From a virus (lineage: Duplodnaviria; Caudoviricetes), in IMG/VR virus record IMGVR_UViG_3300030372_000635, positions 1 through 56,980 of that record: a stretch of 56,980 nt of DNA; one strand, written 5' to 3'. The position numbers and the translations under genes are program-made. Position 1 is the stretch's first letter. The number at the start of each line of letters is the position of its first letter. Below the pieces are notes generated by a model. That model was not told the origin of the DNA. It made no database searches and was given only the letters and a program-made list of their open reading frames with translations. Positions 23,084 through 51,396 of the stretch are shown piece by piece.

Positions 23084-23417
23084 TTAATGTTGTTAAATCA
23101 TTCCATATTATTGTAGCATGAGTTGCAGGTACAAAATCTTCTTCTGTAATTCCATCTGACGCTATTTGCTTCCAACCATTACCATTACTTGCATTAGTAA
23201 GATAAGTTATAAGATCATCTTTACTTGCTATCTCACCTTCAGAAGCAGATATATCTGCTCCATCATCTGCAATCCCAAGCATTACATGATCTCTTGGACT
23301 TGCTGTATTATCTTTAACAGGATACATACCTCCTGTTCCTTGAGGTACACCAAACTTTAAGAAAGTTGGTATTGTACCTTCTGCTGTCAATCTATATTTT
23401 ACTACCTTGTGTGCCAT
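23073..23417 (-). CDS. hypothetical protein of the tail-appendage cassette
   Basis: 114 aa, KVVKYRLTAEGTIP; AGGAG RBS. Confidence 0.7.
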   Translation of the reverse strand: MAHKVVKYRLTAEGTIPTFLKFGVPQGTGGMYPVKDNTASPRDHVMLGIADDGADISASEGEIASKDDLITYLTNASNGNGWKQIASDGITEEDFVPATHATIIWNDLTTLNGG

Positions 23418-23941: not shown

Positions 23942-26032
23942 CTATGCTGCTATTGCGTAAAATATATAATCACCAGTAGTGAACCCACTAGCTATTTGAA
24001 AGCCACTGTTAAGTGGATCAATTAAATCTGTATTTGTAACAGCAGATGCGTTATTATTAAGTGATAAATAAGAGTCATTACCAGATACAATACCTCTAAC
24101 ATTATCCCAATGATAAAATAAAGCATTATTGCTTATACCACTATCAATTCTTCTTACCATTACCAAACTAGAACCAGAACTAAAACCACAATCTACATCT
24201 GTGCTAGAGCCATTGGTATGACTAAAACTTCCTACTTTACTTATTCCTGCAAGGGTAGCCCAAAGATAAGCTATATAATCTTTACCACTTTGATTTAATC
24301 CATTATATGTGCCAAGAGAAAAAACAGTTGAGGTAGGTGCTGTGCTATTCCAAAGTAAAGTTCCACTGTTTAAATTGATGTTACCTAAACTATTTACAGT
24401 AAAACCATCATCATTTGGAGTAGGAAGATTTTTATGATAAACCCACCAACTGTTGCTAGATGAAACTGTTTCTCTTGACTTACACCAAATCATTTCTGGT
24501 GCTACTCCCAAGTTGTGATTTAAGGTTCTTGCACTACCTGTTCCTGTATAAGCGACTATATCAAAAAATCCTGGTGCTCTTCTCCATGCGTTATAAAGAT
24601 TACCACTGTAGTTTCCATAACCATCACCTGCTCTATTTATTAGACCTTTAGCAGTATCAAAACTTGTAGTTGTACTTCCACCACTTTCAGCATTATCAAG
24701 TTCTGTAGATAAGACTTTATTTCCTCGCAATCTATCTCTCATATAATTAGAACCACCACTTGCATAATTATCTCTAAACATTGCTAAATCAACAGGAAAA
24801 CCAGTATTCATAGTTAAATCATTATCATTTAATGAAGTATTACCAAGTTCAACATCAAATACACTAGCTCTACTTGTAGGTGTAGCCATTGGTCCTCTGC
24901 GTATTGCTACATAAATATAAGTTGCACCATTATTATTTATAGCAGCATTGTTGTCTTGTAATTGAAAACCTGTTGCTGTTGGAGCAGTACCATATTCTGT
25001 AGCTTCTGCATCAGTTTTATTTGGATTTAAACTTCTAGACGAATTAGCAACATTAGCAGGTAATCCTCTTATAGTATCCCAAATAAACCAATCATTAGTA
25101 TTAGTAGTATCTTTTACCATAAGCCATTGTGGTTCAAAACCAAGAGTAACTGATGGTCCGGGATTACTAGAATTACCAGTATAAGAACCACATTGTATCA
25201 TACCATCAGAAGAAGTATCATGTCCAAAAAGATAGGCAACATAATTTTCACCATTTGCATTAACTGAATGGTCTGTTCCAACAGTAAAAACACTGGAAGT
25301 AGGAGCAGTATCATTCCACCAATCAGCACTATCAGCCACAGCTGCATTAGTATTAAGTATAAGATACTTATCCTCAGGTGCAGAACTATCTGCTCCTCTG
25401 TGATAAACTGCCCAATTGTCAGTTTGATCTATATTTTTAACTAGTATCATTCCGGGAGCTTGACCAAGACTATGACTTATAGTTTTTCCTGCACTACCAT
25501 CCCCTGTATATGTTACAACATCAAAAAACTTTGGTGCTTTTCTAAATGCCCAAGAAACATAATCATAAGAAGAATCTGAATTTATTGCAGCATCATTACC
25601 CTTTGTTGTAAAACCATTACCATTACTATTGGGTACAATGTAATGCCCAAACTGATCAAAAAATTCCCCATCAGTAGCATTAGAATTTAATCTTTTTTCA
25701 AAAGGATTACTACCTCTTTTACTGTCAAAAAGAATGTGAACATTATCTTGACTTCTATTTTTTATCCAAACCAAACCATCATTATTTTGTAAGTCTATTC
25801 CATTATTAATACTTTGATCAGAACTTGTTCCACTCCAAATATCAATACTAAATATATTTTCTATAAACTTCTGAGGATTACTAACACCTGCTGTTGGCCA
25901 AAGACCCTGCTTGTTAAGAGCTTGAGCTTCTTCTAGTGTCCATACTCCCGGAGCAGAAGTATCTTGAAAGTTATTAGCAGGAAGAACTAATGATTCATCT
26001 TTAGTAATTAATCCACCTAAATATCTTGTCAT
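23942..26032 (-). CDS. tail fibre / receptor-binding protein with internal repeated domains
   Basis: Duplicated FFDVVTYTG..HSLG.APGMI.VK..W.VYH..W..TAPTS.VF.VG module; N-terminal RYLGGLI and GVWTL. Confidence 0.75.
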   Translation of the reverse strand: MTRYLGGLITKDESLVLPANNFQDTSAPGVWTLEEAQALNKQGLWPTAGVSNPQKFIENIFSIDIWSGTSSDQSINNGIDLQNNDGLVWIKNRSQDNVHILFDSKRGSNPFEKRLNSNATDGEFFDQFGHYIVPNSNGNGFTTKGNDAAINSDSSYDYVSWAFRKAPKFFDVVTYTGDGSAGKTISHSLGQAPGMILVKNIDQTDNWAVYHRGADSSAPEDKYLILNTNAAVADSADWWNDTAPTSSVFTVGTDHSVNANGENYVAYLFGHDTSSDGMIQCGSYTGNSSNPGPSVTLGFEPQWLMVKDTTNTNDWFIWDTIRGLPANVANSSRSLNPNKTDAEATEYGTAPTATGFQLQDNNAAINNNGATYIYVAIRRGPMATPTSRASVFDVELGNTSLNDNDLTMNTGFPVDLAMFRDNYASGGSNYMRDRLRGNKVLSTELDNAESGGSTTTSFDTAKGLINRAGDGYGNYSGNLYNAWRRAPGFFDIVAYTGTGSARTLNHNLGVAPEMIWCKSRETVSSSNSWWVYHKNLPTPNDDGFTVNSLGNINLNSGTLLWNSTAPTSTVFSLGTYNGLNQSGKDYIAYLWATLAGISKVGSFSHTNGSSTDVDCGFSSGSSLVMVRRIDSGISNNALFYHWDNVRGIVSGNDSYLSLNNNASAVTNTDLIDPLNSGFQIASGFTTGDYIFYAIAA

Positions 26033-27003
26033 TAAGATAATCCTCCATGAGCACTAGAAATATCAGTGTGATTATATGATCTAATTGCTGCAGTTAAATT
26101 ACCAAAGTCTGTAGCATTTCCTGAAGATGCCATAGTAATATAATCAATCACATCTTGATTAGCACCCCCTGATGTAAAACCTGATGCAAACAACCCTCTA
26201 GTTTTATCAGAACATCCTGTTAAAAGTGATCTTGCAACAGTTAGATCTCCAAAGTCAGTTCCATTTCCTGTTGATGCTGTTGTCACATATTCTATGTTGG
26301 CTATTACAGAACCTCCTGTATTATATCCACCACCAACGAAAACTCTTGTACTGCTATTTGAACTTCCACATGACCTCTGTAATTGAGAAGCATCACCAAA
26401 GTCTGTTGCGTTGCCAGTTGAAGCTATAGTTATATACTGTATAGTATTTGAACTATAATTAACATAGTATATACCTCTTGTTGTGTTACTACCTGCACCC
26501 ATATCCAAACCACTAGATGAAAGTAAATCTCCAAAACTAGTAGTATTACCTGTAGATGCAATCGTAACATATTCCATCAAATCATCATTAACACCTGCTC
26601 CACCTGCTTTGACTGATCTTGTATCATTAGCTAAAGCAGCACATCTTCTATTTAAATGAGCAGCATCTCCAAAATCTGTGGCATTACCAGTTGAAGCAAT
26701 TGTTACATAATCTATTGACTGTGTTCCATTGCTAGTTCCCGGATTAGGCATTCCTTGCCATTTAAGACCTCTAGTTGAACTACTACTGCCACAAATTCCA
26801 TATCTTGCTTGAATCAAATCTCCAAAGTCTGAAGCATTACCTGTGGTTTGTATACCAACAAAATCTAAAGCATCAACATAATTAGTGCTAAAACCACCAC
26901 CAAAAATAGCTCTACCTGTCATGTCAACATATTGTTGCCACCTACCACCTTTTTGAGCAACACCTTGCTGTCTTAAATCCCAAACTCCAGAAAAATTAGG
27001 CAT
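26032..27003 (-). CDS. six-repeat beta-propeller virion protein
   Basis: Six IDYITIASTGNATDFGDL-like repeats; N-terminal SGVWDL; ends HGGLS. Confidence 0.75.
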   Translation of the reverse strand: MPNFSGVWDLRQQGVAQKGGRWQQYVDMTGRAIFGGGFSTNYVDALDFVGIQTTGNASDFGDLIQARYGICGSSSSTRGLKWQGMPNPGTSNGTQSIDYVTIASTGNATDFGDAAHLNRRCAALANDTRSVKAGGAGVNDDLMEYVTIASTGNTTSFGDLLSSSGLDMGAGSNTTRGIYYVNYSSNTIQYITIASTGNATDFGDASQLQRSCGSSNSSTRVFVGGGYNTGGSVIANIEYVTTASTGNGTDFGDLTVARSLLTGCSDKTRGLFASGFTSGGANQDVIDYITMASSGNATDFGNLTAAIRSYNHTDISSAHGGLS

Positions 27004-28541
27004 TATGATAATCCTCCATGCACATTTGAAGTTGCAGAACCTCTTTGATTTGCAGCTAGTAAATCACCAAAGTCTTGTGCGTTACCAGTAGATGCAATAG
27101 TAATGTAATCTATATTATCTACATTACCACTATTAGTATACCCTCCTAAAAAAACACCTCTAGTTGAATTAGAAGTTCCTGCTGTAAAACCTTTTCCTGC
27201 TGTTAGATTACCAAAATCGGTAGCATTGCCAGTGGATGCAATCGTAATGTAATCCATAACATCACTATAAGAACTTCCATCATATCCACCTGCAACAACT
27301 CCTCTGGTAGAAGAGGATAAAGCTGAAGGTCTTGATCTTCTTGCTACAGTTAAATTTCCAAAATTGGTTGCGTCACCTGTGCTTGCTATTGTTATATAGT
27401 CTATAGTATTTTTTGGAGTTGATGAAGAACCTTCTCCACCTGCAAACACACCTCTTGTAGAGGATGCTAAACCTGCTGCACCTGCTCTTGATGAATAATA
27501 ATTTCCAAAGCTAGTAGCATTTCCAGTAGATGCTATTGTTATATATTCTATTCTATTATGGTTAGAATCAGCAGGCGTTCTACCACCACCAATTATACCT
27601 ATTGTAGAATTAGAAAACCCTGCTGCATCCTGATGGTCATCAATTAAATTACCAAAATCCGTAGCATCACCTAATGAAGCTACTGTAATATACTCAATTG
27701 TTTCTTCTGATCCTCCAGTACCACCTGCATAGTAAGCTCTTGTTGAAGAAGATCCTGCTGCAGTAGCATATGAATTAATACTCATATCTCCAAAATCAGC
27801 AGTATTTCCAAGAGAAGAAATTCCAAAATACTGAATAACATTTTGATTAACTGTACCACCAAAATATATACCTCGTTCAGATGAAGGACTTGCAGTAGAA
27901 GCATCACTGTAAGGTGACTGACCAAAAGCATTTATAGCAGATGCTCTAACATTATAAGACTCACCATTAGTAAGAGAACTTACAGTAATAGGACTAGAAG
28001 AACCTGAAGCACCACCTTGTAGACTTGTTTTAACATTTGCTGTACCACCCATACCAGAGTGAGAACTACAGTAGTAGTAAAGAGTAGAAGCAGCTCCTGA
28101 GTCAACAGCTATTTTTGTAAAAGCTCCTGCACTTCCCGGAGTACCACTTGTTGTTACACCTGTAGTATATTCTGATCCACCACCATGAGATCCATTACTT
28201 GTAGTAGATAAACGAAGAGGGTGACCACTGTTACTACTATCACTTTGATCAAATATATAAGTATGACCTTTATGTAAAGTTACAGTACCTTGTGTTGAAC
28301 CATCTATTGCATATTTGTTACCACCACTACTAACAACAGTAACTGCAAAAGTTGTGTCTTCTATAGGTCCTGTTAAAGCACTAGCAGCATATCCTGTAAT
28401 ACTACCACCACCAACATCTGATGGATTAGTAATAGTAACAGTAACTGCATTAAAACCTGCTGAAACACTTATAGTAGGAGCATCAGGTGCTCTAAGCTGA
28501 TCAAAGCCACCTACTAAGCCACCTTTTTTATGTACACCCAT
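27003..28541 (-). CDS. FN3 + cupredoxin-like + six-repeat propeller virion protein
   Basis: FN3 halves (PDAPT..GGSITGY / LTNGESYNVRASAINAFG), GHPL...YYYCSSHSGMGG, six IASTGNATDFG repeats. Confidence 0.75.
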   Translation of the reverse strand: MGVHKKGGLVGGFDQLRAPDAPTISVSAGFNAVTVTITNPSDVGGGSITGYAASALTGPIEDTTFAVTVVSSGGNKYAIDGSTQGTVTLHKGHTYIFDQSDSSNSGHPLRLSTTSNGSHGGGSEYTTGVTTSGTPGSAGAFTKIAVDSGAASTLYYYCSSHSGMGGTANVKTSLQGGASGSSSPITVSSLTNGESYNVRASAINAFGQSPYSDASTASPSSERGIYFGGTVNQNVIQYFGISSLGNTADFGDMSINSYATAAGSSSTRAYYAGGTGGSEETIEYITVASLGDATDFGNLIDDHQDAAGFSNSTIGIIGGGRTPADSNHNRIEYITIASTGNATSFGNYYSSRAGAAGLASSTRGVFAGGEGSSSTPKNTIDYITIASTGDATNFGNLTVARRSRPSALSSSTRGVVAGGYDGSSYSDVMDYITIASTGNATDFGNLTAGKGFTAGTSNSTRGVFLGGYTNSGNVDNIDYITIASTGNAQDFGDLLAANQRGSATSNVHGGLS

Positions 28542-36214: not shown

Positions 36215-37090
36215 TTATCTCGCATTTCCTGATAAATCATAGATTATTTTACCAGATCTGTGTGCTTCATTTATTTTATCAGCATTCTTTGCATATTCTG
36301 CGTCACTCATCTTAGCAATTTCAGACTCTCTTATCTTACCTGAAGACTCACTTGGATCTACTTTTGTCTTAGATCCTCGGTCTACCAACGAGGCAGCAGC
36401 TTTTGTTTTATCTTTCTTATCAGATCTCGTAAGTCCATTATCAACTTTATACAGATCAAGAACACGTACAACTGAAGCAGCATCATCCGTATTTTCATAC
36501 AAAGCGTTCTGAACCCACTTAGGCTGTTCTTCAACCCAATTATGAAATTGATCGGAATCACGTAGCTCATCAAAGTCTGAATGTGCTTTCCTAATTTCAT
36601 TCTCTGCACGACTCCTTGTTGCTTCTTCTTTTGCTTTACTTAGTTCTTCTATTTGTATATTAGCCTTATCAAACATTTGCTTTGCTCGTTTGTCAGCTAT
36701 TGTTTCTACTATACCTGCCACATCTGGATATTTCTCTACCCATGCAGATAGTTCTTCATCAGATGTAGGTGGCACTAGTTTTTTAGTTTCTCCTAGTTTG
36801 TCCTCTAGCTCCTTAATCTTGGCATTATATTCTTTTTCTTTAGCAGCTAGGTGTCTTCTCATATCGCCATAGCGAGTTTTAAAAGATTTCTCTTCATCAC
36901 TAAGTTCAACTTCTGGTTTAGCTTCTTCAGTTTTTTCTTCAACCTTTTGTTCTTCTTGAGGTTTACCTTGTTGTTCCATAAGTTGTTTTAGTTCTTCTTC
37001 TTCTTTTTTGATCTTGTCTTTATACTTAGATCTACTTCTGCTCATATATCCTGCAGTTTTTTGTGCTTCCACATTTTCTAATTCTGGCAT
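36215..37090 (-). CDS. capsid scaffolding protein
   Basis: Acidic coiled coil, FK.RYGD.RRH, HSDF, F..W...QP; upstream of capsid. Confidence 0.8.
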   Translation of the reverse strand: MPELENVEAQKTAGYMSRSRSKYKDKIKKEEEELKQLMEQQGKPQEEQKVEEKTEEAKPEVELSDEEKSFKTRYGDMRRHLAAKEKEYNAKIKELEDKLGETKKLVPPTSDEELSAWVEKYPDVAGIVETIADKRAKQMFDKANIQIEELSKAKEEATRSRAENEIRKAHSDFDELRDSDQFHNWVEEQPKWVQNALYENTDDAASVVRVLDLYKVDNGLTRSDKKDKTKAAASLVDRGSKTKVDPSESSGKIRESEIAKMSDAEYAKNADKINEAHRSGKIIYDLSGNAR

Positions 37091-37131: not shown

Positions 37132-39675
37132 CTACTTTTTGTTTCTACGTTTTGGTCTTTGTATTAATCCTCCTTTATTTTGTGGTCCAATTTTATCTGC
37201 ACCACCTTTTCCAGTTCCAACATCAGTACCCGGTTTCATTTTAGAACCAGATAATCCAGTTGCTGTTTTAGTGCTTACACCTGCTTTTACTGCTGATGCC
37301 ATTTGTTGATTTTTAACTGTTGGACTAAAATCACTTGTATTAGGATTATCATCATCAGCACGATCTTTTCCAGTCTTATTTTCAGAAGCAAATTTTTTCC
37401 TCCAGTTAGGATCAACACCACCTCCACCTCCACCATTACCACCACCAGTAGTAGTAGTAGTTTTACCAATCTGTGACCAAGTTTGATTAGACTTATTTAA
37501 AGCATCTTTAATACGTGTAACAGTTCCACTAAAAACACTTTTTCCTATTTTACTTTCTAAAAACTTTTTTGTAGCAAAACTTGATTCATTTTCTAAGTGA
37601 TCTGCTATTTGTTTATTAATAGCATCAGCTTCATCAATATAGCCTGCAGCTCTTGCTGCTTGTTCCATAATAGTAGCTTTAGCAATACCATCTATGTCTA
37701 TCATTTCATTAACTAATAAACCTGCAGGACCTAGTGCCATCATACTAAAAGCACCAAAAAACTTTTCTCCCATATCTCTACCTAAAGCTTTTTTAGCTTC
37801 ACCTGTAAAGTTATTACCTTTCCAAGTTGTAAAATCTACATCTTTTAGATACTGAGGAACTTCAGGTTCTGTGCTTTTTTTACCTCCACTATCATCTCTA
37901 TCTTTAGCAACTTCTTGTTGAGTTGGTGTTGGTTTATTTAAAGACCAAGGTGGTTGAGTAAACTGTAAATCACTAGCAGGAGTTACAACACCATTAACAA
38001 AAGTAATTACCTTAGACTCACCAGTTTGTCCATGATAATAAGTCATAGTAGTTTTATTCTGTTGTGGTTGACCTTGACCTTGACCTGTTTGATAAATAGG
38101 ACTAGCAGGAGTAAATCCTAAAACACTATAGTCTTGAGGATTAAACGTAGGTTGTGATGCATTTATTGCCTTTTGATCTGCACTAACACCACCATTATCA
38201 AATCCAACAACACCACCTGTAGCTTTCTTCTCTTTATTGTCTTTATCTTTTTGACCAAAAGCTATCATGGTCATATCTACTTCTACTGGTTCACCACCTA
38301 TTCTACCTGTAGCTTCCATCTCTGCAAGACCACGCTTTGCTTCTCCACGTAACTCTTCAAAAAACTTTACACCATAATACTGAACAACATCTGCAGGAAC
38401 AACATACTCACCATCACTTAATTGTGCAGGTATATCATCACGGACTTCTTTAGCTAATGATCCCGGAGGTATTTCATTACCACTAACAGGATCTCTATCT
38501 AGTCCATCATCTTTCATTCCACCTTCTTCAAATAGACTCATCTGTTGTTCCATGCTCATTCCACCTTTATTAAATTGATTAGCAACATCACTTCTAATCT
38601 GTTTTCTGTTGTAAATTAAATCTTCAGCTTGTTTTAAATTTAAGTAAGCTGAACTAGATTCTATCTCGTTTTTAAGTTTATATCGTTCTTTTTCTAATGG
38701 CAAAAGTTCTTTATCAACTAATCTGCTTTGAAATTCAAACGCTTCACGAGCATTTTTAAATTGTTCTGAATTACGGCCAAATTTTTTAAAAGCTTCTTGT
38801 ACCTTTTCATCATATGAGCGAAGTTCTTTGCCTCGTATTTCATTCATCTTTCTTGATATTTCAATATCTTTTTTAAATGTTGGATCGTTTTCAAGAATAA
38901 GTTGTAGTCTATCAAGTTCTTGTCGTTCTTTTACAGTAGGTTTATATACAGAGGGAATATCTTTAGCTATTTGTTTTCCAACTGATTCAGCTTTAAACTG
39001 TTTTTCTCTTTCATAAACATTAGAAAGTAACGCCTCTTTGAATTTTTTCTTAGCATCTGATGAAAGTGAGCTTTTTGCTAACGCTTGATCTATACTCATT
39101 GCATATGCAGATTGTAAGTTAGATCTTTGAGAATCTGCAGTAGCTTTAGCTACACCTGCTTCTTCTAATCTTTTAGTTATACCTTCAGGAGAAGAATCTT
39201 GACTAAGAAGATTTTCTAAAGAAGTTCCTGTAAAAGTTTGATTTACAGAATCAGAAGTTTTTTGTTTAGACTTCTGCTGTTCTTTAGCAAAATTTTCTTG
39301 AAGTGTCTTACTTAAATCAGCAGCTGAAACAGCCATTGACAATTGTTCAGGTGGTGGTGCAGTATCAGTAGCTATTTCATCTGGTTCAACAGTTGTTGTT
39401 GTAGGAGCAGGATCAATACTACGAACTTGTGTTGCCTCAACTGGAGCTGCAGCAACAAGACTAAAACTTTCAGGAGGTGGAGCAGTTTCAGTAACTGTCT
39501 CATCTGGTTCAACAGTTTTTGTTTTAGGAGCAGGATCACGCTGAAGTGTTTGTTCAGCAAGAATTTTAGTATCTACTTTATCTTCTTCCTTGTCATATAC
39601 AATCTGTCCATCAACAATAGTACCTTTATGAGCTTTAATAGGTCTTCTTACTAAACCACTCATCTGTTGTTCCAT
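37132..39675 (-). CDS. large putative internal virion protein with DDIPAQLSDGEYVVPADVV domain
   Basis: 847 aa, low-complexity flanks, several [F/Q]xxGG motifs, repeated MEQQMS. Confidence 0.7.
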   Translation of the reverse strand: MEQQMSGLVRRPIKAHKGTIVDGQIVYDKEEDKVDTKILAEQTLQRDPAPKTKTVEPDETVTETAPPPESFSLVAAAPVEATQVRSIDPAPTTTTVEPDEIATDTAPPPEQLSMAVSAADLSKTLQENFAKEQQKSKQKTSDSVNQTFTGTSLENLLSQDSSPEGITKRLEEAGVAKATADSQRSNLQSAYAMSIDQALAKSSLSSDAKKKFKEALLSNVYEREKQFKAESVGKQIAKDIPSVYKPTVKERQELDRLQLILENDPTFKKDIEISRKMNEIRGKELRSYDEKVQEAFKKFGRNSEQFKNAREAFEFQSRLVDKELLPLEKERYKLKNEIESSSAYLNLKQAEDLIYNRKQIRSDVANQFNKGGMSMEQQMSLFEEGGMKDDGLDRDPVSGNEIPPGSLAKEVRDDIPAQLSDGEYVVPADVVQYYGVKFFEELRGEAKRGLAEMEATGRIGGEPVEVDMTMIAFGQKDKDNKEKKATGGVVGFDNGGVSADQKAINASQPTFNPQDYSVLGFTPASPIYQTGQGQGQPQQNKTTMTYYHGQTGESKVITFVNGVVTPASDLQFTQPPWSLNKPTPTQQEVAKDRDDSGGKKSTEPEVPQYLKDVDFTTWKGNNFTGEAKKALGRDMGEKFFGAFSMMALGPAGLLVNEMIDIDGIAKATIMEQAARAAGYIDEADAINKQIADHLENESSFATKKFLESKIGKSVFSGTVTRIKDALNKSNQTWSQIGKTTTTTGGGNGGGGGGVDPNWRKKFASENKTGKDRADDDNPNTSDFSPTVKNQQMASAVKAGVSTKTATGLSGSKMKPGTDVGTGKGGADKIGPQNKGGLIQRPKRRNKK

Positions 39676-39685
39676 TTAGTATCTC

Positions 39686-42652
39686 CTAAAATTTGTATTC
39701 ATTATCTATAGTAATTGACTGACCCGGACCTTGTATATATTGTGGTATTTTATCTGTACCAATTTTAAACTCAGCTGCAACTCTAGTAGCATCTATCTCA
39801 GACATTTCTAATGGTTTATCAAAACTATAATCAGTAATTTGTAAAAGTTTATGTAAAATAGTTCTTTCTTCTATATTAAAATCATTTCTAGTTTTACGTT
39901 TTAAAATTTTAGCACCTGATGTTGGATCTATTGATTCTGAGACAGATTTAATATTTTTAAATATTTCTTTTTCTTTAGGGGTCATAAAGTTATTAAATAG
40001 ATTTGAATTCATTTTAGTCTCCATTATAAATCTACTTAAAAATCCAGACTGAAGTTCTTCTATTTGTGGAACAATAGTTTCTAATCCTATCTTATTTAAT
40101 CCATTTATAAAAGGATCTGCTTCTAATAAAGAACCCTTCTGAAGTCCTGTAAAAAACATTTTTTGAAAATCTTGATACGTTATTGCTTCAGCTATTGCTA
40201 GTGATAAATTATCTGCATCTAAATCTTTTTCAATAGCTGATCCTTTAAATTTAGTATTTCTTAAATCTTTTAATAAAGAAGAATTTTTAATATTTTTTTG
40301 TAACTTAGATACAAAATCTTCTATAGTATCTATACCTGATTCTAAATCTGTTAATTTTGATGGATCTATCCCACCCTTAGAAGTAAGATCAGTAAATTTT
40401 ATTTCAGGATTTTTGCCCGTTATTAGTAAATCAAATAAAGTTAATCTTGCTGCAGCACCGGCAGGTTTAGAAGCAGAAGACGGTCTTGTTCTCATACCAA
40501 TAAACTTATTCACCATTTCAAGATAAGCATCTTTACTTAATTGATAAGGAGGAATTTTCTTTCTTGACTCAAAGGGTAAATTTAATCTAGCTTGAACTAA
40601 TCTAGCTTCAACTTCTGCTAAGTCATTAAGATATGTAAAATGTTGTTTTATATTATGAAATACATTTCCCTCTTTAAGATCATTAAAATATTTTTGAGGA
40701 TCTTTCATAAGTTCAGATTTTTTATTAAATGTAGATGTTGACATAAACTCTTCTGCAGGAGCACCAATCTTTTCCATTAATTCATACTGCAATTTTTTTG
40801 ATAACACTTCAGCTGCTTTAGGACTTAATTTTATTGGTGAAGGAGCATTACTACCTGCTAATGTAGGATATTCAGTAGGACTTACTTTAGCAAGATCTGA
40901 TACAATATCATATTCTCCATTTCTGTAAAACTGTATATAATAATCAGGCAATGATCTATATAAAGGATGACCCGGAGTAATACCATATTTACCTAAATTA
41001 TTAAAAGTATTAATTCTACTAGCCACTTCTCTAGCATTTTCCATCCTAGCTACATTAAATGTTTGCTTAATACCACTATGTCTACCAAAATCTAGAAAGT
41101 TATTCTTTCCTTGTATTACATGTTGTATTTCGTGAAATAAAGTACTTATAATAGATTCTTGAGTGGCATCTGTAATATTATTATTTAATTTATTTCCATT
41201 CATAATAATATTAATATCCTCTGGATCACCTACAAGATTTTTAATGTTTAATTCTATTATCCCTCTAGGATCATCTATTATTTTACCATAACTGTTCATA
41301 GATCCTTTTGGAACATATTGACCATTTACTCCCATTGCTTCACCAGATTTAGTAAATTGAATATTAAGAGTTTTTAATTCTGGAAACAGCTTAAATAAGT
41401 CAACATGTTTAATTAAATCTTGCAATTGTATAGCAGGATCTCCTTTTTTTGGATTTAATGAAGATAAATGCATTCTGTGTAACATTGTATTATAAGGAGT
41501 AACATCTGCAAAATCGCCTACATTATTTAAAGGATAATTAAATTTAATACCACTATTATCTATTTCAGTAAACAATACATTATTTTTTCCCGGCATCCAA
41601 CCAGTCTTAACCCATATCTCATTTAATCTTCTATTAACATTTACTTGATCATTTGGTTGTAATAATTTAATATCATTAAATATATCACCTTTAGCATCTA
41701 AAGCTTTTGGATATATTTCTTTTTTATAAAGATTGTTTATTGATCTTTTTGCTATTCTATAAGAAAGTTTACTACCCCAACCAAATCTTCTACCAATTTT
41801 ACTTAAATCAGGATCTTTTATATTTAAAGAAGCTGTTTTAGTTGTTTTACCTTGAACAGGTACAAATATAGGGTTAATATTATTTAGTAAATTATTTTTA
41901 TTTTGTGGATTAGTATTAATATTTTTACTAATACCTGAAGAGATAGGTTGTAAACTTCCATTATCAGGTGGAAAATTATTATTTAAAAATTCTTGTACAC
42001 CCTTACCTGCATTATAAACACCTTTACTAGTTAAATTAACAGCACCTTTTAAAGCTTGACCTCCCGGTATTGCTTCTGAAACAACTAAAGCATCATATAA
42101 AGCTAAAGATCTTAAACGAGTTACTTCATCATCTGTCGCTTCGTTAATATTAATCCCTTCTCTTTTAGCATAATCATTTAATGTATCCATAAAAAGTTGT
42201 TTAGTAGATGTACTAAAATGCTCTACATAATTAACTGCTCCTTCTGCAGCATAATTTATAAAACCTTGTTGTGCAGCATCTTTAAATTCATCAAATACAC
42301 CACTAGCTGCTGCTTGAATAAAACCCTGAGGATCTTTTCTTATACCATCTTTCATTTTTTCTACAGCATCATTATACTCAGGATCAAGATCCATTCCTGC
42401 TAATTTTTTTGCAAAAGGTTTAAACAAAGGGAGAGTATAATGTTGTCCTAGTTCTGCTAAACCACTAACTAAACTAACAACATTGTTTGCTGCTATAGAT
42501 CCATAAGATTTACCTTTAGATTTAAGAGGATCTAAATTATAAATATAGGGTCTTGTTTCTTTAGCATTAAACTTTAAATTAGCATAATCCTCTTCACTCA
42601 TAGATTCATAATTATGTAGAGGAGATTGATTATTCAACTGATTTGTTTGCAT
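39686..42652 (-). CDS. polyvalent-type protein: LPD23-like domain + zincin metallopeptidase
   Basis: IWVKTGW.PG....FTEID; STLFHEIQHVIQ (HExxH) and downstream Y...AEVEARLVQ.R. Confidence 0.75.
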   Translation of the reverse strand: MQTNQLNNQSPLHNYESMSEEDYANLKFNAKETRPYIYNLDPLKSKGKSYGSIAANNVVSLVSGLAELGQHYTLPLFKPFAKKLAGMDLDPEYNDAVEKMKDGIRKDPQGFIQAAASGVFDEFKDAAQQGFINYAAEGAVNYVEHFSTSTKQLFMDTLNDYAKREGININEATDDEVTRLRSLALYDALVVSEAIPGGQALKGAVNLTSKGVYNAGKGVQEFLNNNFPPDNGSLQPISSGISKNINTNPQNKNNLLNNINPIFVPVQGKTTKTASLNIKDPDLSKIGRRFGWGSKLSYRIAKRSINNLYKKEIYPKALDAKGDIFNDIKLLQPNDQVNVNRRLNEIWVKTGWMPGKNNVLFTEIDNSGIKFNYPLNNVGDFADVTPYNTMLHRMHLSSLNPKKGDPAIQLQDLIKHVDLFKLFPELKTLNIQFTKSGEAMGVNGQYVPKGSMNSYGKIIDDPRGIIELNIKNLVGDPEDINIIMNGNKLNNNITDATQESIISTLFHEIQHVIQGKNNFLDFGRHSGIKQTFNVARMENAREVASRINTFNNLGKYGITPGHPLYRSLPDYYIQFYRNGEYDIVSDLAKVSPTEYPTLAGSNAPSPIKLSPKAAEVLSKKLQYELMEKIGAPAEEFMSTSTFNKKSELMKDPQKYFNDLKEGNVFHNIKQHFTYLNDLAEVEARLVQARLNLPFESRKKIPPYQLSKDAYLEMVNKFIGMRTRPSSASKPAGAAARLTLFDLLITGKNPEIKFTDLTSKGGIDPSKLTDLESGIDTIEDFVSKLQKNIKNSSLLKDLRNTKFKGSAIEKDLDADNLSLAIAEAITYQDFQKMFFTGLQKGSLLEADPFINGLNKIGLETIVPQIEELQSGFLSRFIMETKMNSNLFNNFMTPKEKEIFKNIKSVSESIDPTSGAKILKRKTRNDFNIEERTILHKLLQITDYSFDKPLEMSEIDATRVAAEFKIGTDKIPQYIQGPGQSITIDNEYKF

Positions 42653-42842
42653 TACTATTTAACTCATCTCTAAGATATTTCATTCTACGTAAACAAGCAA
42701 TAGATCCCTGTAGTTTATACACCATAGAAACTTCTGTTGCTTGCTCTAGTGATTTATGTTGTTTAGCTATAGCATCATCTATATACTCTACAAATGCATC
42801 CCATAGTTCTTTATCAGTAGTAAGTTTTCTTAATATCATCAT
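42630..42842 (-). CDS. small conserved protein downstream of portal
   Basis: LEQA....VYKLQG.I..LRR...LRD. Confidence 0.75.
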   Translation of the reverse strand: MMILRKLTTDKELWDAFVEYIDDAIAKQHKSLEQATEVSMVYKLQGSIACLRRMKYLRDELNSNANKSVE

Positions 42843-44959
42843 TATTGTATAGGTCCTTGATCACCAGTAAATCCGGGTTCTTGTGGAGTTGGTACTGAAC
42901 CAGTTCCTATTGTACCACCACCAGAGCCTTGTGTATCTTCTACCTGTCCACCCGGAGGTGCAGGTGGTTGACCTTGTTGTTGTGGCATCATTCCTTGTGG
43001 GGGTGCAGGAGGTGGATTTTGTGCTTGAAACTTTTTAAGTATCTCTGCTTGTACAGCAGCTTGACTCATAGAGTTAGCTACCTTATCAGGATCAAGATCC
43101 ATACTCTTAGCAATCTCTCTAACAATATAATCCATTCTAGCAAAAGGTGCAAGAGCAGGATTAGATACTGTTTGCATAAACTGCATAAGTCTTTGACTTC
43201 TAACTTCATTAGCCATTAAACTTTCTGTACCTTGAGCTTTAACTTCAAGATCACCTTTAATAGCTGGGTCAAAGTCAAACTGCATATTAAAATTAAAAAA
43301 TGCTTTACCTAGTGGTCCTAATAAATAGTCATCTACATTTTTAATAACATTACGAATAGAACCATTAGCTGCATTCATTAACATGGATATACCAGAAGCA
43401 GTTCTACCTACACCCTGTATACCTGTTTGTCCATGAGCAAATGAAGGAAAACCAGTAGACTCATCTGAAAGTTGTCTAGCTTTATCAAACATCTGCATAT
43501 TTTCACCGGCTACATTAGGAAACTTAGTTCCAAAGATTCCCTGTCCGGGAGCACCACCCTGTCTTCTAAATACTTTTCCGGGATATACTGTAAGATCTTG
43601 TCCGGGAACTAGGTTAGTCTCATCTACTTCTATTAACAAGTTTCCTGATAGTGCAGCATTATCTACACTCATTCTCATAAAACCATTCATAAGAGTTTGT
43701 GTATCATCCATGTTTTCTGCAATACCTACACCAAATATATTATATGGATTCATTTCATAAGGTGTAGCATAATAAGGTAGATAAGCAGGAGTAAATGGAT
43801 TCATTACTAATCTTAATACACAACTGTTACAAACCCATGCATTAACACTTACTTGCTCTACATCTTTTAATTCTTTAGGTATATCTATATCATATTGTTC
43901 TATGATCTCTCTATCTACAAAACCCCAGAACTCTAATACTTCAAATCGTTGAGAATAATCATCTTCATTACTCTCATCCATTGCGTGTTCCCACCATTCT
44001 TTATTGTAGTTCTCACCTATCTCTAATGCTTTATCAATAGCATTTTCTCTAAAGAAAGGTCTACGTTTTAATGCACGTAGTTGTGAACGAGACATCTTGT
44101 GTCTCTCTATAACATACTCTGCTTCATCCATATTGTTTGCATCTGGATCAGGATAGAAGTTCCAGATAGAAACATTAGAAGTTTGTGGTACAGTTTTAAA
44201 TACTGGATTGTATTCACCTTCTTCATCCCAATTAGGATATTCTTTATCAACTGCAAAAGGCCCTTTCATAATACCAGTACCAAATAAGGCAGCTTCAAAA
44301 GCAGCAGATCTTAATTGTTTCTTAGCATTAGACTCTTCTAATTGATCATGTATTTTCTTTTCCATCTTTTTAGCTGCAATCATTGCAGGGTGAAACTGCA
44401 CAGCAGATGGACTTTTACCCGGTTTAAACTCTACATCTTCCTCAACTGCGCTCAGATCGTCTTTAAGAGGCCCTACACGGTCATTAAATTCTGGCAGTGT
44501 CTCCCCCGGCAAAAGTTGATTCGGGTCTGTAGCACCCGTTTCTGTCTCTCCTAGAGCCTCTTTGAGTTGTGGGTTAGTTTCTACACTAACTGTATCTTCA
44601 ACTCCTTCAGGTAAAACTGTAGGATTAATACCTAATGGAAAACGATTACCACCAAATAATACTTCTACTAGTTGTCCATAAGCAGCTAGTACTTTTGTTT
44701 TAGTAACCTTTACAAATACTCTTGACTTTTCTGTAGAAGTAAACTGAACTTCAGGACCATAAAGACCTCTATAGTTTCTGTAAGATTGTATCCATCTTTC
44801 TTCATCACTTCTTCTGGCAGTTTCTGCTTTGCTAAATTTTTCTTTTATAAATCTTTCTATCTGACCTGCAGGTTCATCATTGAGAGCATCTGCTTCAACA
44901 TCATCTATTGCTGCAGATTCTTCAGCATCCATTGCCATTTCTTGTAAATCTTTTACCAT
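42842..44959 (-). CDS. portal protein
   Basis: 705 aa after TerL; YRNYRG, KSRVFVKVTKTKV, FYPDP, FGVGIAENM, GRTASG. Confidence 0.92.
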   Translation of the reverse strand: MVKDLQEMAMDAEESAAIDDVEADALNDEPAGQIERFIKEKFSKAETARRSDEERWIQSYRNYRGLYGPEVQFTSTEKSRVFVKVTKTKVLAAYGQLVEVLFGGNRFPLGINPTVLPEGVEDTVSVETNPQLKEALGETETGATDPNQLLPGETLPEFNDRVGPLKDDLSAVEEDVEFKPGKSPSAVQFHPAMIAAKKMEKKIHDQLEESNAKKQLRSAAFEAALFGTGIMKGPFAVDKEYPNWDEEGEYNPVFKTVPQTSNVSIWNFYPDPDANNMDEAEYVIERHKMSRSQLRALKRRPFFRENAIDKALEIGENYNKEWWEHAMDESNEDDYSQRFEVLEFWGFVDREIIEQYDIDIPKELKDVEQVSVNAWVCNSCVLRLVMNPFTPAYLPYYATPYEMNPYNIFGVGIAENMDDTQTLMNGFMRMSVDNAALSGNLLIEVDETNLVPGQDLTVYPGKVFRRQGGAPGQGIFGTKFPNVAGENMQMFDKARQLSDESTGFPSFAHGQTGIQGVGRTASGISMLMNAANGSIRNVIKNVDDYLLGPLGKAFFNFNMQFDFDPAIKGDLEVKAQGTESLMANEVRSQRLMQFMQTVSNPALAPFARMDYIVREIAKSMDLDPDKVANSMSQAAVQAEILKKFQAQNPPPAPPQGMMPQQQGQPPAPPGGQVEDTQGSGGGTIGTGSVPTPQEPGFTGDQGPIQ

Positions 44960-50627: not shown

Positions 50628-50968
50628 TAGCTTGGTATCTCCGTAATTGATGCAACTACGTGTAGCCTATTAGCTGTAGCTGCTTGAACTTTTAAAATAT
50701 CTCCGGCTGTTAGTAATAAATCTCTAGATAATAACTCTACTGTACCATTAGCACTAATTGACTTAACTTTAAAAAGATTAAAGACAGCAGAAGCAGCATC
50801 AGTAATAGTTACTGTTATTGTATCTGCATTCCCACTGTCTTCAGAAATAATAATAGATTCAACAATAGAATCATATCTATTAGGTACAGTATAAAGTGTT
50901 GTATTGTCTGTTGTTGTAAGATCTACTCTAGCAACTCTGAGAGCAGAAGAAGTTTGTATGGTTGACAT
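50627..50968 (-). CDS. small beta-sandwich virion protein, similar to 28551-28913
   Basis: TLYTVP..SIV.SIII...LTAGDILKVQA...SITEI. Confidence 0.7.
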   Translation of the reverse strand: MSTIQTSSALRVARVDLTTTDNTTLYTVPNRYDSIVESIIISEDSGNADTITVTITDAASAVFNLFKVKSISANGTVELLSRDLLLTAGDILKVQAATANRLHVVASITEIPS

Positions 50969-51396
50969 TATCTACCTCTACGAGCAGCTCCACCTCTAGC
51001 CATACCCTTCTTCTTCATCATAGCACCACCTCTAGCCATGCCTTTCTTTTTCATGGTAGCACCACCTTTAGCCATACCTTTTTTCTTCATCATGCCACCT
51101 CTATTCATCTTACCTTTACCATCCATAGCAAATTTAGGAATCATCTTACCTGTTTTAGGATCTTTACCCATAGGCATAGCACCACCTTTTGAGTAGCCCT
51201 TCTTCTTCATCATAGCCCCACCTTTAGCCATACCTTTTTTCTTCATTCCACCTTTGGCATAACCTTTCTTTCTCATCATGCCTCCACCTTTCATACCAGT
51301 AAGGCCTGTGGCTGAACCTGCAGGTTTCTTTTTTGTAGGTGACATCATACCACCCATATTCATTCTTTTCTTAGCTGCACCTTTTTTCTTCATCAT
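50968..51396 (-). CDS. Met/Lys/Gly-rich repetitive basic protein
   Basis: About nine (M/Y)xxGG units such as MMKKKGMAKGGA; AGGAG RBS. Confidence 0.8.
   Translation of the reverse strand: MMKKKGAAKKRMNMGGMMSPTKKKPAGSATGLTGMKGGGMMRKKGYAKGGMKKKGMAKGGAMMKKKGYSKGGAMPMGKDPKTGKMIPKFAMDGKGKMNRGGMMKKKGMAKGGATMKKKGMARGGAMMKKKGMARGGAARRGR

What the first reader, a model, noticed from the sequence alone, without database searches (positions are those of the whole stretch)
38330..38580. DDIPAQLSDGEYVVPADVV domain as candidate reader or protease of the xxGG motif
Seen: a compact segment (DPVSGNEIPPGSLAKEVRDDIPAQLSDGEYVVPADVVQYYG) flanked closely on both sides by xxGG motifs, in the gene just upstream of the scaffold, where tailed phages often place a maturation protease. 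From memory, a similar D.IPA.LS.GE(F/Y)V motif follows FAxGG in many tape-measure proteins. Inference: a small domain that binds or cleaves at F-x-x-GG.
Basis: partly seen in the sequence, partly recalled or inferred. Interest (0 to 1): 0.7.

Follow-up and report, generated by a model that had tools for sequence, protein, structure and literature searches.

The report
Tape-measure-type latch module in podophage protein
The flagged stretch is the invariant core of a very common but unnamed module that marine HMO-2011-type short-tailed phages share with the tape-measure proteins of long-tailed phages; it looks like a docking or processing-site element of an injected virion protein, not like a protease.

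Summary
Residues 368-464 of the 847-aa protein (37132-39675, minus strand) form a module that is near-invariant in 141 aligned relatives, GG motifs included, while the rest of the protein is hypervariable. The window is a complete HMO-2011-type podophage, and the gene always lies between portal and scaffold.

The core (DDIPAQLSDGEYVVPA plus the following helix) is homologous to a module near the C-terminus of tape-measure proteins (hhalign 96%, E 2e-9). It occurs in JBD30 gp46, Douge gp16 (two copies), lambda gpH 730-786 and 422 prophage loci. There it is bracketed at fixed spacing by [F/Y/L]-A-x-G-G motifs.

No protease signature was found. Pfam, PHROGs, NCBIfam and PDB gave none. AlphaFold2 monomers are poorly folded (pLDDT 59 and 64), and the shared Asp and Ser are absent from lambda gpH, the homologue known to be cleaved.

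Best reading (about 0.5): a partner-dependent latch or hook that marks this protein as a tape-measure-like, packaged and ejected protein. Relatives carry LysM, LPD23 and methyltransferase cargo domains.

Main rival (about 0.2): a processing-site element. Lambda gpH is cut, by an unknown catalyst, just upstream of its copy.

The parts
37132..39675 (-). Gene for the 847-aa module-bearing protein (P0001). Order: variable N-terminal region, module, Gly/Gln-rich variable region, weakly hydrophobic segment (res 637-661), poly-G run, NKGGL plus basic tail.
   Evidence: No Pfam or PHROG family for the whole protein.
38284..38574 (-). Conserved module, residues 368-464 (FNKGG ... GRIGGEPV).
   Evidence: Column counts over 141 homologous copies. 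3240 clusters at 50% identity match it at E<=1e-3.
38344..38445 (-). Core shared with tape-measure proteins, residues 411-444 (VRDDIPAQLSDGEYVVPADVVQYYGVKFFEELRG).
   Evidence: hhalign of 141 HMO-type against 69 TMP-type copies: probability 96.2%, E 2.1e-9, 33 columns. phrog_3547 tape measure E 2.5e-5. tblastn hits inside TMP genes.
38560..38574 (-). FNKGG (res 368-372), the xxGG motif at the junction between the variable N-terminal part and the module.
   Evidence: G371 in 116/120 and G372 in 118/120 ungapped rows. Present 37-52 aa before the DD in 65/67 fused loci. In split forms the upstream ORF ends at this motif.
38518..38532 (-). FEEGG (res 382-386), the xxGG motif inside the module. It aligns with the upstream [F/Y/L]AxGG of tape-measure copies.
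   Evidence: GG 141/141; alignment A1.
38293..38307 (-). GRIGG (res 457-461), the xxGG motif closing the module. It aligns roughly with the downstream FAxGG of tape-measure copies.
   Evidence: 139-140/141; alignment A1.
38188..38223 (-). ATGGVVGFDNGG (res 485-496), two further xxGG motifs. The first is of the tape-measure 'ATGG-hydrophobic-hydrophobic-G' type.
   Evidence: GG 495-496 is kept in 117-119 rows.
37135..37182 (-). C-terminal QNKGGLIQRPKRRNKK: a family-wide xKGG-hydrophobic motif followed by a poly-basic tail.
   Evidence: GG[LIVMF] lies in the last 25 residues of 115/151 family proteins; the remaining 36 were not examined one by one, and the rows printed include evident fragments.
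38536..38553 (-). Internal copy of the 18-nt ATGGAACAACAGATGAGT (codons M375-S380), the point where many relatives start the gene.
   Evidence: Identical 18 nt at the gene start. 10/80 loci start here. HMO-2011 gp49 starts with the module.
39658..39675 (-). First six codons of P0001 (MEQQMS), an 18-nt direct repeat of the module start.
36215..37090 (-). Scaffold-like gene immediately downstream.
   Evidence: phrog_13678. It is adjacent in 51 of 59 related loci with enough flank, and overlaps the ORF end by a few nt in the other 8.
39686..42652 (-). 988-aa upstream neighbour with an HEIQH motif, part of the same variable portal-scaffold slot.
   Evidence: phrog_87 metallo-protease E 0.0077, weak. 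No Pfam family. A homologue lies upstream of the module ORF in 5 related loci (L095, L100, L114, L115, L116).
42842..44959 (-). Portal gene (SU10 type) that opens the slot.
   Evidence: PF23899 E 9.4e-26. Portal lies upstream in 46 of 48 related loci with enough flank.

Best explanation
The flagged peptide is the core of a roughly 95-residue, partner-dependent latch module. It has a short extended or beta-hairpin segment (D-D-I-P-A-x-L-S-x-G-E-Y-V-V-P-A), an amphipathic helix, and Gly-Gly turns as integral flanks.

The module is the one constant element of a hypervariable protein encoded between portal and scaffold in HMO-2011-type podophages. It is homologous to an unnamed module located about 95-135 residues before the C-terminus of many tape-measure proteins.

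By analogy I infer the following. The 847-aa protein is packaged in the virion and ejected ahead of, or with, the DNA, as a tape-measure-like or 'polyvalent cargo' protein. The module docks it to a conserved part of the DNA channel (portal, adaptor or nozzle here; tail-tip hub in long-tailed phages), or holds its copies together. The variable parts act on the host. The xxGG motifs are parts of this element, not substrates of an enzyme within it.

Shown: conservation, homology, synteny, the absence of protease signatures, and the poor monomer folds. Inferred: virion location, ejection, and docking.
For: 1. Conservation pattern. The module is 65-96% identical in the 150 best of 3240 clusters, in proteins of 131-2050 aa, and lies anywhere from residue 1 to 1445. 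Across 14 isolated phages only residues of about 343-658 of the protein are detectable, and about 370-465 in most. By contrast TerL, portal, scaffold and capsid neighbours are strongly conserved and syntenic.

2. Homology to tape-measure proteins.
- hhalign 96.2%, E 2.1e-9.
- PHROG tape-measure families phrog_3547 (E 2.5e-5), phrog_5448 and phrog_23013.
- In tblastn of the module, 45 of the 46 listed non-HMO rows fall inside annotated tape-measure genes.
- PDB sequences JBD30 gp46 1013-1089 and Douge gp16 961-1028 and 1412-1473.
- Lambda gpH 730-786 occupies the same TIGR01541 profile positions (250-304) as the Burkholderia copy.

3. Fixed architecture in 69 prophage tape-measure proteins. The upstream AxGG ends 10 aa before the Asp in 65/69, and the downstream FAxGG starts 36 aa after it in 44/69. 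The module lies 95-135 aa from the C-terminus in 59/69.

4. Published reading of the same stretch. [quoted passage not shown]

5. AlphaFold2 monomers show only helices plus an extended segment (pLDDT 58.9 and 63.8). This is as expected for an element that folds on a partner.

6. Cargo-like relatives. Of 120 listed relatives, 10 carry LysM, 5 carry LPD23 (with a weak metallopeptidase DUF6782 hit) and 1 carries a methyltransferase. In P0012 the methyltransferase (577-675) lies N-terminal to the module (916-1017). These are the architectures that PMC5512222 (passages) describes for head-packaged, injected polyvalent proteins.
Against: - No experimental or structural datum places this protein in the virion. 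I found no proteomics for HMO-2011-type phages (3 papers, none on this protein).
- In every solved tail the module region is unresolved. Only the last 32-43 residues of the TMP are modelled (passages of PMC11445458, PMC13033339, PMC12617516, PMC11945409). The 'hook' is therefore a prediction, not an observation.
- T5 pb2 does not match the module profile.
- Spacing of the GG flanks differs from the tape-measure type: 26 rather than 10 residues upstream, and about 45 rather than 36 downstream.
- The protein lacks a convincing transmembrane segment. The best 19-residue Kyte-Doolittle window scores 1.23.
- No partner was identified.
Confidence: 0.5

Rival explanations
1. Processing-site element. 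The module, with its AxGG flanks, marks and presents a site where the protein is cut by a host protease, a phage protease or an upstream zincin domain. This would separate an N-terminal part from a C-terminal part, as in lambda gpH -> gpH* + gpHC.
For: [quoted passage not shown] The precise site is stated to be unknown, and so is how the cleavage is catalysed (passages of PMC12617516). The lambda copy of the module starts at 730, right after that region.
- T5 pb2 is cut after R1127 (PMC10038345 passages), and the next residues are AEGG.
- In HMO-type loci the gene is either fused or split exactly 1-3 residues after an xxGG. There are 67 fused and 10 split loci among 80. In 6 of the 7 split loci that have a large abutting upstream ORF, that ORF ends xxGG plus 1-3 aa.
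- Relatives carry weak metallopeptidase-like domains upstream, and the upstream neighbour has HEIQH.
Against: - No cleavage has been shown for any HMO-type protein.
- The T5 cut is before AEGG, not after GG, and T5 is not a detectable homologue.
- A lambda gpK (C40 peptidase) homologue accompanies the module in only 12 of 80 prophage loci (small database, limited sensitivity).
- The split/fused pattern can also arise from cassette insertion at the 18-nt repeat.
Confidence: 0.2
2. One reading: the module is itself a small enzyme or reader that cleaves or binds F-x-x-GG, acting as an autoprotease or maturation protease.
For: - Asp413, Ser420 and Glu423 are invariant in both the HMO-type (141/141) and the 69 TMP-type copies (A5 invariant columns D25, S32, E35).
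- The association with xxGG motifs is tight.
- The catalyst of lambda gpH cleavage is unknown (PMC12617516 passages).
Against: - No peptidase family was found at any threshold tried: Pfam at E<=10 on the module gave 0 families. No peptidase family appeared among the 11 Pfam families that matched any of the 69 TMP copies at E<=10; each matched only 1-2 copies. NCBIfam gave none.
- There is no solved-structure fold match: 0 matches at E<=10.
- The fold is low-confidence and non-globular.
- Lambda gpH, the cleaved homologue, has Tyr/Glu and His where Asp413 and Ser420 align.
- My recalled likeness to LexA/S24 'GDSMxP..GD.V' is not backed by any HMM hit.
Confidence: 0.07
3. For the outermost motif only (FNKGG before M375): its conservation reflects gene structure rather than protein function. 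The Lys-Gly-Gly codons (AAAGGTGGA, GGAGG) would serve as the Shine-Dalgarno site for a start at M375, and the motif would be the inherited C-terminal end of an inserted or duplicated cassette.
For: - SD-like A(A/G)GGTGG or GGAGG lies 6-10 nt before the ATG in fused and split forms alike. In split forms the stop overlaps the ATG.
- The 18-nt identical repeat at the gene start and the module start.
- The family's own C-terminus carries the same xKGG-hydrophobic motif.
Against: - Gly codon choice at this GG is no more constrained than at the two inner GG motifs. GGCGGT occurs 12 times at GG#1, and GGTGGA/GGTGGT dominate at all three.
- F and N/A in front of the GG are conserved at the protein level, and the motif resembles FAxGG of tape-measure proteins.
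- This reading explains one of at least five GG motifs and none in tape-measure proteins.
Confidence: 0.1

Closest known systems
C-terminal region of lambda-family tape-measure proteins (NCBIfam TIGR01541 tape_meas_lam_C; lambda gpH residues 730-786; Burkholderia-phage TMP 1217-1285)
   Same: Both have the core D-x-I-P-A-x-L-S-x-G-E-(F/Y)-V-V-x-A plus a following helix, bracketed by xxGG motifs. Both belong to large proteins thought to leave the virion ahead of the DNA.
   Different: - The window protein does not match TIGR01541 or Pfam Tape_meas_lam_C.
- A 16-residue insert separates the upstream GG from the core.
- The gene sits in the head module of a short-tailed phage, not between tail chaperone and tail-tip genes.
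Predicted 'hook' of Pseudomonas phage JBD30 tape-measure protein gp46 (residues 1022-1066; PDB 8rk3 sequence, region not modelled)
   Same: It is the same module by sequence. The published AlphaFold prediction of two helices and a short hairpin agrees with the helices seen here (PMC11445458 passages).
   Different: The JBD30 copy has the tape-measure spacing of GG flanks. Its function is also only proposed. I could not see the paper's appendix figure because supplements are closed.
T5 pb2* C-terminal anchor and the pb2 cleavage site (R1127|AEGG)
   Same: It has a comparable position (after a hydrophobic stretch, before the hub-bound C-terminal coil). It anchors in the opened hub and is adjacent to a cleavage site followed by AEGG (PMC10038345 passages).
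   Different: The module profile finds no significant similarity. The resemblance is by eye only.
MuF / SPP1 gp7 minor head proteins and phage 'polyvalent proteins' (Iyer et al. 2017, PMC5512222)
   Same: The gene lies directly after the portal. A constant element is joined to variable enzymatic or binding domains (LysM, LPD23, methyltransferase in relatives).
   Different: There is no MuF domain and no LPD domain in the window protein itself. The constant element is of tape-measure type.

Membership tests
Lambda-family tape-measure C-terminal domain (TIGR01541 / PF09718) | Match to the family HMM above its cut-off | tested here: not met
   P0001 and P0002 gave no hit. The Burkholderia TMP P0154 scores 120.4 bits against a cut-off of 104.75.
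Lambda-family tape-measure C-terminal domain (TIGR01541 / PF09718) | Core motif D-x-I-P-A-x-L-S-x-G-E-(F/Y)-V plus helix | tested here: met
   hhalign 96.2%, E 2.1e-9, 33 columns.
Lambda-family tape-measure C-terminal domain (TIGR01541 / PF09718) | AxGG ending 10 aa before, and FAxGG starting 36 aa after, the conserved Asp | tested here: not met
   The spacing holds in 65/69 and 44/69 TMP copies. In the window protein the GG motifs lie 26 aa before and about 45 aa after.
Tape-measure protein (functional class) | Encoded in the tail module of a long-tailed phage, after the tail chaperone genes | tested here: not met
   The gene lies between an SU10-type portal and the scaffold/capsid genes. An SU10-type adaptor is present.
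Phage prohead/maturation proteases (S78, U35, S49, S80 and similar) | Match to a peptidase family HMM; conserved catalytic residues | tested here: not met
   No Pfam, PHROG or NCBIfam peptidase hit for P0001 or P0002. No peptidase domain was found among 20 other ORFs of the window, mostly of the structural module, at E<=0.01.
LexA/S24 self-cleaving peptidases (resemblance recalled from memory) | S24 HMM match; Ser-Lys dyad | tested here: not met
   No S24 family among the 11 Pfam families hit by any of the 69 TMP copies, and none for P0002, at E<=10. The Ser position is Asp in all 141 HMO-type copies.
MuF / SPP1 gp7 minor head protein | Phage_Mu_F domain | tested here: not met
   No Pfam family was found in P0001. 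Only the gene position after the portal agrees.
Phage polyvalent proteins (PMC5512222) | Several effector or LPD domains in one virion-associated polypeptide | tested here: inconclusive
   Relatives carry LPD23, LysM or Methyltransf_23. P0001 itself has no recognised domain.
crAss-like cargo protein 1 (PF25725) | Pfam match | tested here: not met
   There was only a language-model lead at 0.84. Pfam at E<=10 gave nothing.

The most novel reading that the evidence does not exclude
The module with its AxGG flanks is a self-contained cis element that directs cleavage of virion-ejected proteins at the flanking Gly-Gly. It would be the missing determinant of the lambda gpH -> gpH* + gpHC processing, whose site and catalyst have been unknown since 1974. 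The element would be shared between tape-measure proteins of long-tailed phages and the polyvalent injected proteins of abundant marine podophages. There the natural split and fused gene forms would mimic the cleaved and uncleaved states.
Probability: 0.13. Interest if true: 0.8.

Novelty: new variant of a known kind. Interest (0 to 1): 0.55.

Why it matters
The module is one of the commonest unnamed protein elements in marine viromes. It matches 3240 clusters at 50% identity, and 5450 at 90% identity within one length class alone. No Pfam family covers it.

Recognising it as the tape-measure C-terminal module does three things:
1. It gives a functional handle on the hypervariable portal-scaffold gene of HMO-2011-type phages, which infect SAR116 and Roseobacter hosts. 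That gene becomes a likely injected cargo protein.
2. It links the ejection apparatus of a podophage group to that of long-tailed phages.
3. It points to a defined, conserved element right beside the unmapped cleavage site of lambda gpH. An old open question becomes directly testable with lambda genetics.

Tried and rejected
- **Complex prediction**. Chains were the module of a natural split form (L099) and the last 60 residues of its upstream neighbour. The result was no answer (score 0.00, mark 0.32). It is not evidence either way.
- **Foldseek against PDB** with the window model: 0 matches. Against BFVD: only the module's own sequence relatives, then weak tape-measure rows at E>0.3. The model is of low confidence, so fold searches cannot decide anything.
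- **A second AlphaFold2 run** on the more diverse tape-measure alignment gave no confident fold either.
- **T5 pb2 as a homologue**: the profile search found nothing. It is kept only as a by-eye analogy.
- **Lambda gpK-type peptidase as a general partner**: found in only 12/80 loci. That gpK also has a JAB/MPN domain is my recollection and was not tested.
- **LexA/S24 likeness**: recalled, with no HMM support.
- **Mycobacteriophage TMP motifs 1-3** (PMC1796659 passages): these relate to host cell-wall proteins, not to this module.
- **ESM Atlas**: only unnamed viral clusters and a weak crAss cargo lead.
- **Literature search for the motif as a string**: 2 papers, both irrelevant. A search on 'tape measure protein' / 'conserved motif' / 'GEFV' listed nothing that describes it. 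These cover only CC-licensed PMC and bioRxiv.
- **A first related-loci run** failed because the alignment was too divergent. It was repeated with three sequences.
- **Correction to my notebook**: entry 3 gives 12 LysM and 6 LPD23 proteins. The correct counts are 10 and 5 of 120.
Full report
**What is there**

The finding lies in an 847-aa ORF on the minus strand (37132-39675). The quoted peptide is residues 395-435. The window is a complete 56,980-bp virus record.

Its gene order on the minus strand is as follows:
- large terminase
- SU10-type portal
- a 70-aa ORF
- a 988-aa protein
- the 847-aa protein
- a scaffold-like protein (phrog_13678)
- major capsid protein
- SU10-type adaptor

tblastn of the 847-aa protein against 50,697 phage records finds 14 records: 11 Roseobacter CRP phages, two records of Puniceispirillum phage HMO-2011, and one uncultured Caudoviricetes. 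None covers 80% of the query, and the matches lie within residues 343-658, in most records only about 370-465. The window is therefore an HMO-2011-type marine podophage, and the flagged stretch is the conserved part of an otherwise very variable gene.

**Is it more than chance?**

An exhaustive phmmer search with residues 365-470 against 1.84 billion cluster representatives gave these counts:
- 3240 proteins at E<=1e-3
- 2529 at E<=1e-10
- 565 at E<=1e-30

The best 150 are 65-96% identical over the module. They are 131-2050 aa long, and the module lies anywhere from residue 1 to residue 1445. Of 151 proteins, 141 carry the strict motif.

In their alignment most columns from G385 to P463 are invariant or nearly so. 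That includes the GG at 385-386 (141/141) and GRIGG 457-461 (139-140/141). G371 and G372 are present in 116 and 118 of 120 ungapped rows.

The protein has five GG dipeptides within residues 371-496, where about 0.9 is expected from its composition.

**The tape-measure connection**

Pfam has no family for the protein or for the module, even at E<=10. PHROGs, scanned with the module alone, returns the following:
- tape-measure families phrog_3547 (E 2.5e-5), phrog_5448 and phrog_23013
- an unknown family, phrog_13338
- a virion structural family, phrog_8003

tblastn of the module finds 94 phage records. Of the 60 listed, 14 are HMO-type. Of the other 46, 45 fall inside genes annotated as tape-measure proteins (Burkholderia, Gordonia and Arthrobacter phages) and one falls in a hypothetical protein. 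A further 34 records were not listed.

The local tape-measure sequences read, for example...FATGG-x10-DSIPAMLSNGEFVVNA...-FATGG. In four such proteins the module lies outside every Pfam domain, and in two of them it follows Tape_meas_lam_C.

A pattern scan of one genome per species found 484 stretches, of which 422 were confirmed and 80 kept. They come from Burkholderiales, Rhizobiales, Rhodobacterales, Streptomyces, Halanaerobiales, Petrotogaceae, Neisseria and others. My regular expression parsed 69 of the 80 loci and missed 11. In those 69:
- an [F/Y/L]-A-x-G-G ends exactly 10 residues before the conserved Asp in 65
- an F-A-x-G-G starts 36 residues after it in 44
- the Asp lies 95-135 residues from the ORF end in 59

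The loci were selected on the core motif, so the flanks are an independent observation.

Profile-profile comparison of 141 HMO-type against 69 tape-measure copies gives probability 96.2% and E 2.1e-9 over 33 columns, residues 411-444 of the window protein. Similarity of the flanks is one of arrangement only.

**Solved phages that carry the module**

Sequence searches of the PDB find three phages:
- JBD30 gp46: 8rk3, residues about 1013-1089.
- Mycobacteriophage Douge gp16: 8zdo/8zdq, two copies, 961-1028 and 1412-1473.
- Lambda gpH 730-786: found with a profile that itself contained lambda, but not with the independent profile A5 at E<=1.

The lambda copy is supported independently. In NCBIfam TIGR01541 it aligns to profile positions 250-304, and the model aligns the Burkholderia protein over residues 956-1287, which include its module at 1217-1285. 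The lambda sequence reads KFHFATGG...KYEPAGIVHRGEFVFTKEA...GYATGG.

In none of these structures is the module modelled. From passages I read:
- JBD30 has only the last 33 residues built. [quoted passage not shown]
- Douge has residues 1658-1699 built (PMC13033339).
- T1 has residues 921-956 built (PMC11945409).
- For lambda, residues 818-849 are resolved and 'gpH residues ~690 to 817' are not (PMC12617516).

**Is it a protease?**

The evidence is against it:
- No peptidase family matches the module, the whole protein, or any of the 69 tape-measure copies.
- None was found among 20 other ORFs of the window, mostly of the structural module, at E<=0.01. That scan did find a tail lysozyme, a tail-fibre chaperone domain, DUF7483 and the SU10 adaptor.
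- AlphaFold2 on the window module with 30 sequences gives mean pLDDT 58.9, with helices at module positions 11-20, 64-70 and 72-92 and no confident sheet.
- On a tape-measure copy with 69 diverse sequences it gives 63.8, with only positions 31-60 above 75.
- Foldseek finds nothing in the PDB. In BFVD it finds only sequence relatives.
- Asp413, Ser420, Gly422 and Glu423 are invariant in both groups. In lambda gpH, the homologue known to be cleaved, the aligned residues are Tyr/Glu and His, and only G-E-F-V is kept.

This is the profile of a short element that folds on a partner, not of an enzyme.

**What the slot encodes**

In these:
- The module ORF is followed by the scaffold homologue in 51 of 59 loci with enough downstream sequence. 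In the other 8 the scaffold frame overlaps the ORF end by a few bases.
- It is preceded by the portal in 46 of 48 loci with enough upstream sequence.
- Terminase, portal, scaffold and capsid give E-values of 1e-70 to 0. The N- and C-terminal parts of the window protein are often undetectable.

Among 120 listed relatives in the near-length class (5450 at E<=1e-5), 104 have no Pfam domain, 10 carry LysM, 5 carry LPD23 and 1 carries a methyltransferase. Re-scanning confirmed four points:
- LPD23 lies near the N-terminus.
- There are weak, sub-threshold hits to the putative metallopeptidase DUF6782.
- LysM was confirmed.
- Methyltransf_23 lies at 577-675 of P0012, whose module is at 916-1017.

These are the architectures described for head-packaged, injected 'polyvalent proteins' and for MuF-anchored effectors, whose genes also follow the portal gene (passages of PMC5512222). 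Complete family members end in xKGG-hydrophobic plus a poly-basic tail: 115 of 151 have this motif. The remaining 36 were not examined one by one, and the rows printed include evident fragments.

**The junction**

Of the 80 loci:
- 67 have the module fused behind an N-terminal extension, 65 of them with a GG 37-52 residues before the DD
- 10 start the ORF at the module (MEQQM...), as does HMO-2011 gp49
- 1 is cut by the contig end
- 2 were missed by my pattern

In 6 of the 7 split loci that have a large abutting upstream ORF, that ORF ends xxGG plus 1-3 residues, and where checked (L099) its stop overlaps the ATG as TAATG.

The Gly-Gly codons form an SD-like AAGGTGG or GGAGG 6-10 nt before that ATG. 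Their codon choice is no more constrained than at the inner GG motifs.

In the window the first 18 nt of the gene are identical to the 18 nt at the module start. The N-terminal 374 residues therefore look like a cassette inserted or duplicated at the first six codons of an ancestral module-first gene.

These facts fit two readings, and I could not separate them: a cleavage or docking junction, or simple cassette exchange at a permissive, translationally coupled boundary.

**Mechanism and odds**

- **Most likely (about 0.5).** The module is a latch or hook that docks a packaged, ejected protein to a conserved part of the DNA channel, or holds its copies together. The GG motifs would be its turns. 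The window protein would be the podophage counterpart of a tape-measure or ejection protein carrying variable cargo.
- **Main rival (about 0.2).** A processing-site element. [quoted passage not shown] The lambda module begins at 730. T5 pb2 is cut after R1127 (PMC10038345), directly before AEGG, although T5 is not a detectable homologue. A lambda gpK-type C40 peptidase accompanies the module in only 12 of 80 prophage loci.
about 0.07.
- **Gene-structure explanation of the outermost FNKGG alone:** about 0.1. It is compatible with the other readings.

**Novelty**

In lambda-like proteins the tape-measure copy is buried inside a curated NCBIfam model. In JBD30 it has been noted as a predicted hook.

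I found no description of it as a separate, mobile module, nor of its presence in podophage head-module proteins (CC-licensed PMC and bioRxiv only; supplements closed).

I file it as a new variant of a known kind.

Noticed in passing
window 39658-39675 and 38536-38553 (minus strand): An identical 18-nt direct repeat, ATGGAACAACAGATGAGT, lies at the start of the 847-aa gene and at the start of the module. The N-terminal 374 residues look like a cassette inserted or duplicated at the first six codons of a module-first gene.
   Followed up: partly
window 50968-51396 (minus strand): A 142-aa, very basic protein with repeated KKKGMARGGAMM units, that is, several M-A-R-G-G motifs of the same hydrophobic-A-x-G-G type. 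It has no Pfam family.
   Followed up: no
window 26032-27003 and 27003-28541 (minus strand): Two Gly-rich neighbouring proteins (323 and 512 aa, 15-16% Gly) both end in HGGLS. The 512-aa protein also begins MGVHKKGGLVGG. A 114-aa protein (23073-23417) ends LNGG.
   Followed up: no
window 39686-42652 (minus strand): The 988-aa protein upstream carries an HEIQH zincin-like motif (weak phrog_87 metallo-protease, E 0.0077; no Pfam hit). In some relatives an equivalent large ORF abuts or is fused to the module protein, and relatives carry LPD23 with weak DUF6782 metallopeptidase hits.
   Followed up: partly
window 37135-37182 (minus strand): The protein family ends in a conserved xKGG-hydrophobic motif followed by a Lys/Arg-rich tail (115 of 151 proteins). 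This could be a DNA- or portal-binding tail or a removable peptide.
   Followed up: partly
window about 39320-39540 (minus strand), residues about 46-119 of the 847-aa protein: A tandem duplication of a roughly 41-residue Pro/Thr/Glu-rich unit (DPAP.T.TVEPDE..T.TAPPPE...) in the N-terminal region, seen by eye in the translation.
   Followed up: no
L099 8284-8288 and other split loci (L103, L112, L118): In natural split forms the stop of the upstream large ORF overlaps the ATG of the module ORF (TAATG in L099; the overlap in the other three is inferred from ORF coordinates). An SD-like GGTGGA or GGAGG is supplied by the Gly-Gly codons.
   Followed up: partly
BFVD entry A0A6J7WTZ5 (rank 9): A 342-aa uncultured-phage protein named as containing an intramolecular chaperone auto-processing domain shows 36% identity to the module over 98 columns (E 0.023). 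The module may occur in tail-fibre-like contexts too.
   Followed up: no
Douge gp16 (PDB 8zdo chain S sequence) 961-1028 and 1412-1473: This mycobacteriophage tape-measure protein carries two copies of the module about 450 residues apart, far from the C-terminus.
   Followed up: no
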